Positions 4,150 through 62,870 of a stretch of DNA of 64,000 nt are shown here, one piece after another; within the stretch, counting starts at the first letter, position 1, and each line of letters begins with the position of its first letter. The stretch lies in the NCBI RefSeq assembly GCF_009914755.1, contig NC_060947.1. One strand, given 5' to 3'. This DNA comes from the human T2T-CHM13v2.0 reference genome, Homo sapiens. The position numbers and the translations under genes were made by a program. A model generated the notes under the pieces. The model saw only the letters and a list, made by a program, of their open reading frames with translations. It did not search any database and was not told the DNA's origin.

Positions 4150-4442
<293 letters not shown>

Positions 4443-4443
<1 letters not shown>

Positions 4444-4448
4444 TACAT

Positions 4449-4481
<33 letters not shown>

Positions 4482-4588
4482 ATACACATTATATATATAT
4501 ACATTATATATATATATACATTATATATATATACATTATATATATATATACATTATATATATATACATTATATATATATATATATATA
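4443..4588. repeat. Interrupted (TA)n / TACAT(TA)n microsatellite at the Alu tail
   Basis: Repeated acattatatatatat blocks. Confidence 0.95.
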
Positions 4589-24130: not shown

Positions 24131-24245
24131 CACGCTTCCTGGGCTGTTACAGTCAATGGACTTATCAACACTGAAATGTTATCCTCCTGGCCAGCCAGAA
24201 AAATTTTCTGCATTTTTGGATAAAGTTGTTGGATTACAAAAATAA
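24131..24245 (+). CDS. ALG13: ALG13 short-isoform terminal exon ([12 protein letters not shown]...[10 protein letters not shown])
   Basis: ttttgttttag acceptor; 81+163+139+115=498 nt = 165 aa + stop. Confidence 0.97.
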
Positions 24246-25022
24246 ACACTAAACTCTCAACACTTTAAAAGCAACCCCCAAATTCAACCTATGTAATGTG
24301 ATTAAATCAAATTAAATACATAATATATATTTACAAAATAATATAATTAATAAACTTCCTACATCTATAGAATGTATAGGAAATTTTATGTTGTGCACAT
24401 TTGCATTGGGTCCAAATCCTAATTGCAGTTTAGTGAAATTACTAGATTTTTTTCTAATCTTCAGTATGTAGTGAGCATTCACAGGTTTTCTCCTAGAATC
24501 TCAAGTGGAATTGGAATCATAAAAATGAATGAGATTTGAAAACTTTCACAAAGATTATAAATGTAGTTAGTTTGATACTCCTTAGAATAAAAAAATGAAA
24601 CAGTAACAACTTTTATGTAAAAAAATTTTACATAAGAGTTAGCATCTTTAGCTTTATAATCTAAGGAACCAAATTTAAAAAATGATGGATTATGCTCTGT
24701 GAAATGAAAAGTTCAATCATTGCCTAAAAAAGATGATCAAGTTAGTTGATCTCTTGTACTTGGAAAAGCTACTTTTTTCCTAAAGAACAGAGTGGAGTGG
24801 ATATATTCACTTTTTTTTTCTAAAACATACAAAGTGATAAAATAATCGTGCCTAATGTCAAAACTTTACTGGTTTGAGAAGAATAATCAAAAAGGACTTA
24901 TACCAATAGGACTTACTATTGTTTTTTAAGGATCTCCTCTCACAGTGGTAATGAAACATTAACTGTAACAGAAATTTACAATTTATGTGCTTATAAAATT
25001 AGTTTTATGAATGAACAATAAA
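24241..25022 (+). terminator. ALG13: Candidate poly(A) signals of the short isoform
   Basis: AATAAA at 24241 (overlapping the stop) and at about 24349, 24586 and 25017. Confidence 0.6.
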
Positions 25023-26844
25023 CTGATGCATATAATGGCTTAAATATATGGTTTTAAAATTGACTTAACTTGAGCAAGATACATTATGAAGTTCTTTCTG
25101 ATTAGAGTGTGTGGTCTCAAGACCTTTACAGTAGATTATCCTTAAGTGTCCATAGCTCTCTGGTACAATGTTTAGATATAGTTTATCTATCAAAATAGAA
25201 CATTCACTATAAAGACCTCTCTTCCATTCCAATCATATTATCCCAACATGCTAAATGTTCCAAACATTTTATTTGGAATGCATTTTATCATGTTTTTATA
25301 GGTTTATTTTTCTGATTGTGTTTTATTTAGGCTAATATTAAAAAAATGCTTACTAGTGGTAGAAGGTGGTGACAAAGAAATACTCTGGGTAGCAGGAGGA
25401 AGCCAACTTGGATTAAAATTTTGCTGAGAATAATCTAAAAAGTGAGTAATCTGGTTGAGAATTCACAGCACCATAATCATAATTGTATATCAATGTTATG
25501 TTTTAGGAAAGGTCCTATTCAAATCCAGGGAGAGAATCTTTAGTGTTTTCTGGGCCCTCATAAATACGTTTTTCTCATTTGAGAAAATTGTGACTTTATG
25601 TTGGTCACTTAGTTTTTATAGTTTATGATGAAGAATTAAAGAGAAACAAATGAAAGGCAAGGTCTACTCAAATATCAGACAACTAAAAGGCTATACAGCC
25701 CCTAAATCCTTTGCTATCTACTTCCCCAGAATAATGCATAACCTAAATTCCATTATTTCATTTAGCAGAGGTTTAAGCCGTTGTTGTCAATTGTGTGCAG
25801 TAACGCCTCTGACTTCCCTTTTGTGGAATTTTGTATCGATTTTGGATTTTTAAGTCAAAGGAGACTTTAAAATCATTTTGATTTGGCACGGATTCTTGAG
25901 ATTATCTAGTCCAATTCCATCATATTCAGATTTTACCATTTGCTTAAAGTATAGCTTTTGGCAGAACTGCCCCTAGGAGCAGCTCCTTGATTCCCAGTCC
26001 CCTGCTCTTTCTACCCTGCATAATATATGTTGTAAGCTTTTTGTTTCTTTATAGTTGTTTGCCTAGTGTTCATTTTAGTTACTCGAATTCCTTGCAAGGT
26101 AGGTTTTGTTTGTTTATTTATGGAAGTTATTTAGTAGGAATTTCACACTTAACTGGGTTTTCCTTTGGCGTATGACAACCTTACCTAGGACTTAGAAATC
26201 TGTGATTTCTGAGTTTTTGGAATTTAGGAAAATGCTCTGGGTAGGATTGATAGTAGATTGAATAAATTAAGACTTTAAGACAGAATTGTAGACTTTTGGA
26301 GTTGGGAGATAATTTAAAGAATATTTTAAACCACCAGTTTTACAGATGAGGAAACATGCTAAATTAATCACCACATTTACATCTTATTAGTCCTTATTAA
26401 AGAATGGTAACCAAAAGTCTGTTTGAAATGTTTGCTCTATTTGTTTGGTTTCATTACATGACAGAGCTGCAGGTTCTTGATATTAATGAGTAAGTGGAAT
26501 GCAGTTTATTTAGCAGTGTTCTATTAGAGGTACTGAAATTTTCAGGGATAAGGAAATGAAAGAGAGTTTAGCATTGGGAAATTTGCACCATGGATAGATT
26601 AAGAGGTAGACAGTTAATAGAACATTTACGGGTTGGAGTAGATGAAAAGAGATGTGATGTTTTGGGATGACCTTGGGAATTAAGGATTTTAGATACTTAT
26701 AATTTGGGAGGAAAGAAAGCTCAAAGGATTTGTTGGTAAGATAGTATAACCAATGAATTTGACATAGGGTTCTGGAACATTTAAAAGTAGTCATTATCTG
26801 CAAGTACCATCAAGTATCTGATTTTGGACACCTTAGACCTCTAC

Positions 26845-56338: not shown

Positions 56339-56414
56339 GATGGAAGAGTGGGGCGCCTGCTACAATGCTGAAAATATACCAGAGGGCTACAATAAAGGAA
56401 CAGAAGAAACAAAG
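56339..56414 (+). CDS. ALG13: ALG13 exon 11 (MEEWGACYNAENIPEGYNKGTEETK)
   Basis: 76 nt; weak donor AAG/GTTTGA. Confidence 0.93.
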
Positions 56415-57315
56415 GTTTGATATTTTCTAAGGCAAAGAATTTTCATAGTCTTGGCTTGCAGCATCATGACTTAAACTAGTTAAAGTCAGATATTATATTC
56501 TAGTTATATGGGTTGAGGGAGGAGTTGGTCATTTTCCTTTGTGAAAGTCTTACCTATCTTTAAACTTCAAATGCATACTTAATGTTCTTTGAATTCTTAT
56601 TTTTACAGAATTTTAGATTTTTCAGAACAAACTGAACACTTCAGAAATTTCAAGAGCAATATGTTTTTAAGTTAAATATTACAAACCCAATATTTAGTTT
56701 GTAATCAGTCTTCTGACGCTAAGGTTTTTTTCATTAAGGAATACAATGCCTATCTTTATTTTATTCAAACTAGGTGATAATCATGGTTTAAAGTTAGAGA
56801 AACAGAAATTTCACCATCCGTATAGGACTAAAATCAAATAGGCCTTCAGTTTGAGGCTAGCTAAATAAGTCAAATACTATTATAGCAATCTCTGTGTATA
56901 CCTGAGGTGCTTATAATTTTGGAATAGTATTGAATATGGTGAAATTCTAGGAAAGCAGAAGAAAAATGGTAGTTCCTTTGGAAATTTTAACAGGATTTGA
57001 CCATAATGAAGTAACCTTCAGATATTTCCAGGTGATTGTAGAGTACAGAAATATTGCACCTCCATGTGTATATCATGATAACACTTCCTGAATAGCTCTG
57101 AATTTTTAATCCTGGTTTGTGTTGCATTGGTTTATATGGGATGTGTCCTGAGTCATTGCCAGGTTTAGACATTATTTCCCTTCTGCCATCTAAAACCTTT
57201 TAGATTACTTGCATTTTGCTACTTTAGTCTCCTGATTTTTAAAATATATGGCAAAATTTATTGTGCGATTTATTTCTTGTTTTAATAAAGAACGACGTGG
57301 TTTTTTTTTTTTTTA

Positions 57316-57901
57316 AGAAGGAAGAAACTTAATTCTTCCTTCTTCATAGAAGGAAGAAACTTAATTCTTCCTTCTTCATAGAAGGAAGAAACTTAATTCT
57401 TCCTTCTTCATAGAAGGAAGAAACTTAATTCTTCCTTCTTCATAGAAGGAAGAAACTTAATTCTTCCTTCTTCATAGAAGGAAGAAACTTAATTCTTCCT
57501 TCTTCATAGAAGGAAGAAACTTAATTCTTCCTTCTTCATAGAAGGAAGAAACTTAATTCTTCCTTCTTCATAGAAGGAAGAAACTTAATTCTTCCTTCTT
57601 CATAGAAGGAAGAAACTTAATTCTTCCTTCTTCATAGAAGGAAGAAACTTAATTCTTCCTTCTTCATAGAAGGAAGAAACTTAATTCTTCCTTCTTCATA
57701 GAAGGAAGAAACTTAATTCTTCCTTCTTCATAGAAGGAAGAAACTTAATTCTTCCTTCTTCATAGAAGGAAGAAACTTAATTCTTCCTTCTTCATAGAAG
57801 GAAGAAACTTAATTCTTCCTTCTTCATAGAAGGAAGAAACTTAATTCTTCCTTCTTCATAGAAGGAAGAAACTTAATTCTTCCTTCTTCATAGAAGGAAG
57901 A
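57316..57901. repeat. Perfect 32-bp palindromic minisatellite, 18 copies + 10 nt
   Basis: Unit AGAAGGAAGAAACTTAATTCTTCCTTCTTCAT; starts at 57316, 57348 ... 57892. Confidence 0.98.
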
Positions 57902-57942
57902 CTAAGGATTGTGAGTTTGTAGCATGATTATTTTTGTTTTAG

Positions 57943-58077
<135 letters not shown>

Positions 58078-62124: not shown

Positions 62125-62870
<746 letters not shown>

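What the first reader, a model, noticed from the sequence alone, without database searches (positions are those of the whole stretch)
57316..57942. Minisatellite built from 18 tandem decoy 3' splice sites just upstream of ALG13 exon 12
Seen: each 32-nt unit in the pre-mRNA reads ACTTAAT (6/7 match to branch consensus YNYTRAY, A at -18), then pyrimidine tract TCTTCCTTCTTC, then ATAG, then AAGGAAGAA (purine-rich, enhancer-like). The AGs lie at 57348-49 and every 32 nt to 57892-93; a T14-AAG acceptor precedes the array. The true acceptor is only 49 nt past the last decoy, and the intron 11 donor is weak (GTTTGA). Splicing exon 11 to any decoy hits a stop at once (AAG GAA GAA ACT TAA, or AAG GAA GAC TAA for the last). 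A GTGAGT donor at 57911 could close a 17+32n-nt pseudo-exon. Inference: copy number may tune unproductive, nonsense-mediated-decay (NMD) splicing of the long OTU-Tudor isoform without affecting the glycosyltransferase isoform.
Basis: partly seen in the sequence, partly recalled or inferred. Interest (0 to 1): 0.8.

Follow-up and report, generated by a model that had tools for sequence, protein, structure and literature searches.

The report
Hairpin-unit minisatellite before ALG13 exon 12
A perfect 18-copy, 32-base repeat sits just upstream of ALG13 exon 12 and each copy looks like a splice acceptor, but each copy is also predicted to fold into a hairpin hiding that signal, so it is most likely an ordinary young intronic repeat whose effect on splicing is untested.

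Summary
Tandem Repeats Finder reports 57316-57901, period 32, 18.3 copies, 100% identity. AGs lie at 57316+32n for n=0..18, exon 11 ends in phase 0, and a stop follows each decoy within 5 codons.

An 11-bp purine/pyrimidine stem forms in two registers, at -14.4 and -15.1 kcal/mol.

On a matrix built from 20 annotated acceptors in the window, the decoy scores 6.09. That is near the real median of 6.29 but below exon 12 at 9.43. Of 2684 other intronic AGs, 124 score as well, and the antisense strand of the array scores 6.89. The acceptor look is therefore a by-product of composition.

Opening a decoy pyrimidine tract costs 10-15 kcal/mol, against 1.5-9.7 for 19 real acceptors. A local-window estimate did not separate them. 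Modelled copy number from 0 to 27 leaves the true acceptor's accessibility unchanged.

The unit is unique in the genome. I found no paper or held supplement that mentions it.

Most likely this is a young, near-neutral variable-number tandem repeat. A splicing or decay-tuning role is possible but untested.

The parts
56339..56414 (+). ALG13 exon 11 (NM_001099922.3), which ends in phase 0. Its donor is AAG|GTTTGA at 56415-56420.
   Evidence: Annotation table supplied with the finding. Donor matrix score is 7.37 against a median of 7.38.
57284..57289 (+). AATAAA hexamer 11 nt upstream of the T14 run. It is a candidate intronic polyadenylation signal, seen in passing.
   Evidence: Of 41 intronic AATAAA hexamers in the window, it is the only one with a run of 8 or more T within 40 nt downstream.
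57301..57317 (+). T14 run followed by AAG. This is the strongest acceptor-like site and lies in phase with the array (n=0).
   Evidence: Matrix score is 11.91, and 10 of 2684 other intronic AGs score as well. Opening cost is 6.59 kcal/mol.
57316..57901 (.). Minisatellite with a 32-bp unit, 18.3 copies and 100% identity. It makes up 38% of the 1528-nt intron 11.
   Evidence: The unit is unique in the genome: all 18 whole-genome matches lie in this array.
57348..57375 (+). One example of the unit hairpin. Stem AGAAGGAAGAA (57348-58) pairs with TTCTTCCTTCT (57365-75), with loop ACTTAA. The alternative register pairs 57333-43 with 57348-58 around loop TCAT. The pattern repeats every 32 nt.
   Evidence: As RNA the two registers give -14.4 and -15.1 kcal/mol, with 0 of 200 shuffles as stable. 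As DNA they give -9.4 and -10.2 on both strands. The whole array folds at -309.5 kcal/mol, z = -21.
57348..57893 (+). Eighteen unit AGs (TCATAG|AAGG) at 57348+32n. Each is followed by AAG GAA GAA ACT TAA in the exon 11 frame.
   Evidence: Matrix score is 6.09. Opening costs of the tracts were 9.99-14.89 kcal/mol for the 5 of 18 that were tested.
57911..57916 (+). GTGAGT, the only GT-type donor motif between the array and exon 12. It lies 32 nt upstream of the true acceptor. There is no GT inside the array.
   Evidence: Possible pseudo-exon lengths are 17+32n.
57943..58051 (+). ALG13 exon 12 (109 nt). Its acceptor is TTATTTTTGTTTTAG at 57928-57942.
   Evidence: Annotation table. Leave-one-out matrix score is 9.43. 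Opening cost is 1.54 and 3.3-4.2.

Best explanation
This is a locus-unique, young minisatellite of the variable-number tandem repeat kind in ALG13 intron 11. Each 32-bp unit is a quasi-palindrome: a purine arm AGAAGGAAGAA, a short loop, and a pyrimidine arm TTCTTCCTTCT.

Inferred: single-stranded DNA of either strand can fold into hairpins in two registers. That favours slipped-strand replication or repair, which would explain how the array grew and why it stays homogeneous.

The look of a 3' splice site follows from the architecture. A pyrimidine arm is followed by a purine arm that begins with AG.

Inferred: in the pre-mRNA each pyrimidine tract pairs with a neighbouring purine arm as soon as it is made. 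The unit acceptors would then be largely hidden from U2AF. The stronger and more open true acceptor 49 nt downstream would win, and the array would have little or no effect on ALG13 output.

Shown here: the anatomy, the hairpin energetics, the matrix ranks, and genome uniqueness. Inferred: the growth mechanism, masking in vivo, and near-neutrality.
For: 1. The array is perfect: 18.3 copies at 100% identity.
2. The unit folds as an 11-bp stem in two registers. RNA gives -14.4 and -15.1 kcal/mol with 0 of 200 shuffles as stable. DNA gives -9.4 and -10.2 on both strands. The array as a whole is about 70% self-complementary and folds at -309.5 kcal/mol, z = -21.
3. The decoy matrix score is 6.09. 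Real acceptors have a leave-one-out median of 6.29, and 10 of 20 fall below the decoy. Exon 12 scores 9.43. 124 of 2684 other intronic AGs score at least 6.09. The antisense strand of the array carries 17 sites scoring 6.89.
4. Opening a 13-nt pyrimidine tract costs 9.99-14.89 kcal/mol for the 5 of 18 unit decoys tested. The 19 real acceptors have a median of 4.71 and a range of 1.54-9.72. Exon 12 is the lowest.
5. Modelled alleles of 0, 1, 2, 4, 9, 18 and 27 units leave the true tract at 3.3-4.2 kcal/mol and the last decoy tract at 11.0-12.4.
6. The unit 26-mer, allowing up to 2 mismatches, occurs 18 of 18 times in this array across the 3.1-Gb genome. The left flank is single-copy. The array is therefore not a dispersed element.
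7. No exon listed in the supplied annotation table lies in the array.
8. The unit has no CpG. Assuming a recalled rate of 1.2e-8 per bp per generation, the chance of no substitution in 586 bp falls to 0.06 at 400,000 generations. That fits recent growth or ongoing homogenisation.
Against: 1. The folding results are thermodynamic predictions without proteins. An A/U-rich 11-bp stem can be opened by helicases and RNA-binding proteins.
2. The local-window calculation gave a joint open probability of 0.033 for the 13-nt tract of decoys n=5-14. That lies inside the real range of 0.0018-0.21. I attribute it to window-edge effects, but that is inference.
3. Opening costs depend on context. The last decoy gives 9.99, 8.29 as a nascent transcript, and 11.81. 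The first two overlap or nearly touch the real maximum of 9.72.
4. At motif level the decoys match half of the real acceptors. T14-AAG is strong (11.91) and only moderately masked (6.59).
5. The splice matrices rest on 17-20 sites.
6. Precedents exist for intronic repeats that alter splicing of the next exon, namely the ABCA7 repeat and the CFTR TG repeat.
7. The decoy-exon paper says multiple competing splice sites may be critical for decoy function.
8. X-linked repeats were not assessed in the tandem-repeat splicing catalogue.
9. Population polymorphism and age were not measured. Only one haplotype was available.
Confidence: 0.55

Rival explanations
1. The units and T14-AAG act as genuine alternative 3' splice sites for exon 11. 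The products are either an upstream-extended exon 12 or a pseudo-exon of 17+32n nt closed by GTGAGT at 57911. Both carry an immediate stop and are degraded by nonsense-mediated decay, so copy number would set the yield of the long ALG13 isoform.
For: 1. The motifs and the frame are as described. The stop falls at codon 5 in the exon 11 frame, and stops occur in all three frames.
2. The decoy matrix score equals the median of real acceptors, and T14-AAG is in the top 10 of 2684.
3. There is no GT inside the array, so one donor would serve all acceptors.
4. The purine arms would be exonic and resemble GAA-type enhancers. That resemblance is recalled, not tested.
5. The short 165-aa isoform ends upstream.
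Against: 1. The pyrimidine tracts and the AGs are predicted to be paired.
2. The true acceptor is stronger (9.43 against 6.09) and more open.
3. GTGAGT in its ATT context scores 0.74 on the local matrix, and 780 of 2570 intronic GTs do as well.
4. GTGAGT lies 32 nt from the exon 12 acceptor. By recalled minimum intron size that is too short to splice, so using it would force exon 12 skipping.
5. No listed annotated exon lies in the array.
6. I found no report in print.
Confidence: 0.15
2. The array acts as a decoy exon and is rarely spliced. Under this model U2AF and U2 at T14-AAG or the units, together with U1 at GTGAGT, engage the ends of intron 11 non-productively. That would favour retention or nuclear detention of the 1528-nt intron, with strength depending on copy number.
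For: 1. The decoy-exon model needs both a 3' and a 5' splice site and is seen mainly in introns longer than 1 kb. Its authors note that multiple competing splice sites may be critical (PMC6097662, passages read).
2. Intron 11 is 1528 nt.
3. It carries 19 in-phase AGs and one GTGAGT.
Against: 1. The same hairpin masking applies.
2. The SF3B1 decoy exons in that paper are highly conserved. A perfect 18-copy array is probably young (inference).
3. Retention of intron 11 and U2AF binding could not be examined here.
Confidence: 0.08
3. The array acts as a protein-binding platform or structural element that changes inclusion of the 109-nt exon 12, whose skipping would shift the frame. Possible routes are UCUU-rich arms binding PTBP1, GAA-rich arms binding SR or TRA2 proteins, or a structured rod and DNA hairpins slowing RNA polymerase II. 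A pause could also favour use of the AATAAA-T14 signal at 57284.
For: 1. There are precedents for intronic repeats upstream of an exon that alter its inclusion. ABCA7 repeat length correlates with exon 19 skipping (review PMC6660495, passages read). The CFTR TG repeat acts through TDP-43, and distance effects are described in PMC10078293 (passages read).
2. The array ends 41 nt before exon 12.
3. The AATAAA at 57284 is the only 1 of 41 intronic hexamers with a downstream T run.
Against: 1. The same arms are predicted to be paired with each other.
2. Modelled copy number does not change accessibility of the exon 12 acceptor, the tail region or GTGAGT.
3. The protein motifs are recalled, not tested.
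4. No transcript ending at this site appears in the exon list supplied.
Confidence: 0.1
4. The array encodes a structured RNA, such as a cluster of microRNA or snoRNA precursors, or it is part of a mobile element.
For: The hairpin content is very high. A permissive Rfam scan returns 206 sub-threshold matches to hairpin-like families on both strands.
Against: 1. None of the 206 Rfam matches reaches its gathering score, for example 44.9 against 100. They come from unrelated taxa and tile the repeat.
2. Stems of 11 bp are too short for Drosha or Dicer substrates (recalled).
3. The unit and the left flank are unique in the genome.
Confidence: 0.02

Closest known systems
Intronic variable-number tandem repeats that affect splicing of a flanking exon, such as the ABCA7 intron 18 25-bp repeat (De Roeck 2018, seen only as cited in PMC6660495 and PMC10078293)
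   Same: It is a minisatellite in the intron directly upstream of a coding exon. The unit is rich in motifs that splice factors could bind. A copy-number-dependent effect on the next exon is conceivable.
   Different: For ABCA7, length was measured in people and correlated with exon 19 skipping. Here no genotype or transcript data exist. The ALG13 unit is a hairpin and the array is perfectly homogeneous.
[quoted passage not shown] 2018, PMC6097662; Parra et al. 2020, PMC7373989, abstract only)
   Same: There are cryptic acceptor and donor motifs inside an intron longer than 1 kb. Inclusion would introduce a stop. There are multiple competing acceptors.
   Different: Known decoys are single cassettes, bound by U2AF and with the SF3B1 examples conserved. 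They are not arrays of identical units. Binding, retention and conservation are all untested here, and masking by structure is predicted.
Tandem repeats associated with splicing variation (spl-TRs; Hamanaka et al. 2023, PMC10078293)
   Same: It is a tandem repeat close to a 3' splice site. The mechanisms described there are protein binding and branch-to-acceptor spacing.
   Different: That catalogue kept 40,598 sites on autosomes only. ALG13 is absent from its 10 searched supplementary files. This array lies upstream of the likely branch region and not between branch and acceptor.
Hairpin-forming or quasi-palindromic repeats prone to slipped-strand instability (general class, recalled)
   Same: It has perfect 11-bp inverted arms with 4- and 6-nt spacers on both strands. 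The whole array is about 70% self-complementary.
   Different: Instability at this locus was not measured. The same 10-bp arm pair with a 3-9-nt spacer occurs at 3 other genomic places, each listed once. The hairpin alone therefore does not guarantee expansion.

Membership tests
Minisatellite / variable-number tandem repeat | Head-to-tail tandem copies of a 10-100 bp unit | tested here: met
   Period 32, 18.3 copies, 100% identity. 18 of 18 window matches to the 26-mer lie in the array.
Minisatellite / variable-number tandem repeat | Copy number varies among individuals | not testable with these tools
   Only one haplotype (the window's assembly) is held. ALG13 is absent from the held supplements of five repeat surveys, and some of their files were not searchable.
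Minisatellite / variable-number tandem repeat | Locus-specific rather than part of a dispersed repeat family | tested here: met
   All 18 of 18 whole-genome matches lie in this array. The left flank has one match, itself.
Decoy exon (Parra et al. 2018) | Cryptic exon bounded by functional 3' and 5' splice sites | tested here: inconclusive
   Only the motifs could be assessed. The acceptor scores 6.09, near the median of real sites, and T14-AAG scores 11.91. The donor ATT|GTGAGT scores 0.74 on a 17-site matrix. Function was not tested.
Decoy exon (Parra et al. 2018) | U2AF1/U2AF2 binding at the decoy acceptor | not testable with these tools
   No CLIP data were available. Predicted opening costs of 10-15 kcal/mol argue against easy binding.
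Decoy exon (Parra et al. 2018) | Lies in a retained intron, typically longer than 1 kb | tested here: inconclusive
   Intron 11 is 1528 nt. Retention could not be examined.
Poison exon / splicing coupled to nonsense-mediated decay | Inclusion introduces a premature stop upstream of later exon junctions | tested here: met
   The stop falls at codon 5 in the exon 11 frame, and stops occur in all three frames. At least 6 coding exons follow within the window.
Poison exon / splicing coupled to nonsense-mediated decay | The exon or alternative site is actually used in transcripts | not testable with these tools
   No RNA-seq was available. No exon listed in the supplied annotation lies in the array, and two exons of other transcripts are not shown.
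Tandem repeat associated with splicing (spl-TR) | Statistical association between repeat length and use of a nearby intron | not testable with these tools
   The catalogue covers autosomes only. ALG13 is not in its searched supplements.
Rfam structured RNA families | Match at or above the family's gathering score | tested here: not met
   0 of 206 matches reach the gathering score.

The most novel reading that the evidence does not exclude
The array is a copy-number-variable decoy module. T14-AAG, 18 unit acceptors and the single GTGAGT donor transiently recruit U2AF, U2 and U1. Hairpin breathing would set how often this happens. The outcome would be stop-containing products or retention of intron 11. 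Array length, which is hemizygous in males, would then quantitatively set the output of the long ALG13 isoform without touching the 165-aa glycosyltransferase isoform. It would be an X-linked splicing-dosage polymorphism missed by autosome-only repeat catalogues.
Probability: 0.13. Interest if true: 0.7.

Novelty: new member of a known kind. Interest (0 to 1): 0.33.

Why it matters
ALG13 is an X-linked disease gene (recalled). A length-variable element 41 nt from a coding exon could act as a hidden modifier of the long isoform in hemizygous males. The repeat-splicing catalogue I checked excluded the X chromosome, so the question is open and cheap to test with long-read assemblies plus RNA-seq. 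If the hairpin-masking reading is right, the locus is mainly a clean natural example of RNA structure neutralising a dense run of cryptic acceptors. As it stands it is an ordinary intronic minisatellite with an unusual unit architecture.

Tried and rejected
2. Mobile-element origin is rejected. The unit and the left flank are unique in the genome.
3. A structured-RNA gene is rejected. 0 of 206 Rfam matches reach the gathering score.
4. There was no hit at curated cut-offs, only a sub-threshold KIF2A-like match of 16.2 bits against a cut-off of 27. The domains span several exons that could not be submitted joined, so the domain names rest on recall.
5. Literature searches found nothing on this array:
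   - ALG13 + VNTR returned 2 irrelevant papers.
   - ALG13 + tandem repeat returned 24 papers, 20 listed, none on this array by title or abstract.
   - ALG13 + alternative splicing + nonsense-mediated returned 3 papers, none relevant.
   - A 16-mer of the unit returned 0 papers.
   - ALG13 was absent from the held supplements of six repeat papers. One file each of PMC10078293, PMC10234305 and PMC8327921 was not searchable.
6. The local-window accessibility estimate did not separate decoys from real sites on the joint 13-nt measure. I kept it as evidence against my reading and added a global constrained calculation.
7. MaxEntScan, SpliceAI, a branch-point predictor, RNA-seq, eCLIP, other human haplotypes and primate genomes were not available.
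8. The idea that the same hairpin is generally expansion-prone is not supported. Three other loci carry the arm pair and each is listed once.

Full report
**Observation.**
- Tandem Repeats Finder reports one array at 57316-57901 with period 32, 18.3 copies, 100% matches and no indels, score 1172. It is by far the strongest tandem array in the 64-kb window; the next scores 226.
- All 19 positions 57316+32n (n=0..18) carry AG. The first follows a T14 run (57301-57314). The other 18 read TTCTTCCTTCTTCATAG|AAGGAAGAAACTTAA.
- ACTTAAT lies at -23..-17, with its A at -18.
- The exon 12 acceptor AG (57941-42) is 49 nt past the last unit AG. GTGAGT sits at 57911-16.
- Coding length through exon 11 is 1326 nt, so exon 11 ends in phase 0. 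A decoy junction would read AAG GAA GAA ACT TAA. The array has stops in all three frames.
- Exons 1-3 joined to the alternative exon 24131-26416 give a 165-aa ORF. The short isoform therefore ends upstream of the array.

**Qualifications.**
- The intron 11 donor AAG|GTTTGA matches 6 of 9 positions of the recalled consensus. On a matrix of this window's 17 donors it scores 7.37, equal to the median of 7.38.
- ATT|GTGAGT scores only 0.74 there, and 780 of 2570 intronic GTs do as well. A 17-site matrix is crude, and GTGAGT matches the intronic consensus fully.
- There is no GT inside the array. Any pseudo-exon would have to end at 57910, giving lengths of 17+32n. Alternatively the decoys would act as upstream alternative acceptors of exon 12.

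Each unit is a quasi-palindrome.
- The purine arm AGAAGGAAGAA is the exact reverse complement of the pyrimidine arm TTCTTCCTTCT. Each pyrimidine arm can pair with the purine arm on either side.
- With loop ACUUAA the RNA hairpin gives -14.4 kcal/mol. With loop UCAU it gives -15.1. In both cases 0 of 200 shuffles fold as well.
- The whole array is about 70% self-complementary. It folds at -309.5 kcal/mol against -164.8 for shuffles, z = -21.
- As DNA, both strands form the same hairpins at -9.4 and -10.2 kcal/mol.
- In either register the pyrimidine tract is in a stem and the decoy AG forms the first two pairs of the next stem. In the ACUUAA register the branch-like motif sits in the loop.

**Is the splice-site look more than chance?** For one unit it is not.
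- I built a matrix from the 20 annotated acceptors in the window. The unit AG scores 6.09.
- Real acceptors, scored leave-one-out, have a median of 6.29 and range from -0.94 to 10.24. Ten of 20 fall below the decoy. Exon 12 scores 9.43.
- 124 of 2684 other intronic AGs score at least 6.09. That is about one per 350 nt, or about 0.09 expected per 32-nt unit.
- The antisense strand of the array carries 17 sites scoring 6.89. Any pyrimidine arm followed by an AG-rich purine arm looks like an acceptor.
- The 18 copies are one event amplified, not 18 independent events.
- T14-AAG is a stronger site at 11.91, matched by only 10 of 2684.

**Accessibility.**
- A global constrained partition function gives the cost of opening the 13-nt tract at -17..-5. 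For unit decoys n=1, 2, 9, 17 and 18 (5 of 18 tested) the costs are 14.89, 13.90, 13.57, 11.32 and 9.99 kcal/mol. T14 costs 6.59.
- The 19 real acceptors have a median of 4.71 and range from 1.54 to 9.72. Exon 12 is the lowest.
- With the transcript cut 12 nt past the AG, decoys n=1, 9 and 18 cost 15.90, 13.18 and 8.29. The last value is inside the real range.
- A local-window method disagreed in part. Mean per-base unpaired probability in decoy tracts was 0.23, with the core near 0.07, against 0.23-0.67 for real sites. The joint probability that all 13 nt are open was 0.033 for n=5-14, which lies inside the real range of 0.0018-0.21. I think this reflects windows that cut off a partner arm, but that is inference.
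- Modelled alleles with 0, 1, 2, 4, 9, 18 and 27 units gave nearly constant costs. The true tract stayed at 3.3-4.2, the 57900-57930 zone at 9.1-9.7, GTGAGT at 2.7-3.05, and the last decoy tract at 11.0-12.4. The array is thus predicted to be structurally self-contained.
- The different values for the same site show a context dependence of about 2-3 kcal/mol.

**Origin.**
- The 26-mer core of the unit, allowing up to 2 mismatches, matches 18 times in the 3.1-Gb assembly, all in this array.
- The 481-nt left flank matches only itself. The array is therefore not part of a dispersed element.
- The same 10-bp arm pair with a 3-9-nt spacer occurs at three other places, on contigs 2, 4 and 9, each listed once. 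The hairpin alone does not force expansion.
- The unit has no CpG. Assuming a recalled mutation rate of 1.2e-8 per bp per generation, the chance of no substitution in 586 bp is 0.50, 0.25 and 0.06 after 100,000, 200,000 and 400,000 generations. Perfect identity therefore suggests recent growth or continuing homogenisation. This is inference.
- A permissive Rfam scan gave 206 sub-threshold matches, and none reached its gathering score.

**Literature.**
- Full-text searches found nothing on this array. ALG13 with VNTR returned 2 irrelevant papers. ALG13 with tandem repeat returned 24 papers, 20 listed. ALG13 with alternative splicing and nonsense-mediated returned 3. A 16-mer of the unit returned 0.
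- ALG13 does not occur in the held supplements of PMC10078293, PMC8024321, PMC11701250, PMC10234305, PMC8327921 or PMC8096271. One file in each of three of these could not be searched.
- The tandem-repeat splicing catalogue kept sites on autosomes only (passage read).
- For comparison I read passages of the decoy-exon paper PMC6097662, the ABCA7 review PMC6660495 and PMC10078293. PMC7373989 was seen as an abstract only.

**Verdict.**
- Most likely (0.55) this is a young, locus-unique, hairpin-unit minisatellite. Its acceptor-like motifs are a by-product of its architecture and are largely masked in the pre-mRNA, with little effect on ALG13.
None could be tested here.
- The supplied annotation table lists no exon in the array but leaves two exons of other transcripts unnamed.

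Noticed in passing
window 57284-57314: AATAAA at 57284-57289 is followed 11 nt later by the T14 run. Of 41 AATAAA hexamers in the ALG13 introns of the window, it is the only one with a run of 8 or more T within 40 nt downstream. It could be an intronic polyadenylation site. Reading through the exon 11 donor gives GTT TGA, so such a transcript would encode residues 1-442 plus one residue.
   Followed up: partly
window 57350-57353 and every 32 nt: Each unit has a TAG|AAG tandem acceptor pair 3 nt apart. The matrix scores are 6.09 and 5.36.
   Followed up: partly
window 57894-57942: The 49 nt between the last unit AG and the exon 12 acceptor hold five more AGs. The nearest ends at 57922, leaving only about 19 nt free of AG before the acceptor. 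CTAAG at 57902-57906 in the truncated last unit is a possible branch site for exon 12, judged by eye only.
   Followed up: no
window 62125-62181: A perfect two-copy tandem duplication of a 28-bp unit lies in ALG13 intron 15.
   Followed up: no
window 4442-4588: A compound TA-rich microsatellite has overlapping periods of 2, 15, 17 and 32, upstream of ALG13.
   Followed up: no
L010 (G000 contig 2, 197021158-197021185), L011 (contig 4, 36357202-36357226), and contig 9, 119052604-119052632: Three other genomic places carry the same 10-bp purine/pyrimidine arm pair with a 5-9-nt spacer. Each is listed once.
   Followed up: no
window 57316-57901: The array, at 586 bp, does not appear among the longest masked stretches listed in the supplied annotation note, although it would rank second by length. 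It is apparently not soft-masked in the source file. The window file itself is all upper case.
   Followed up: partly
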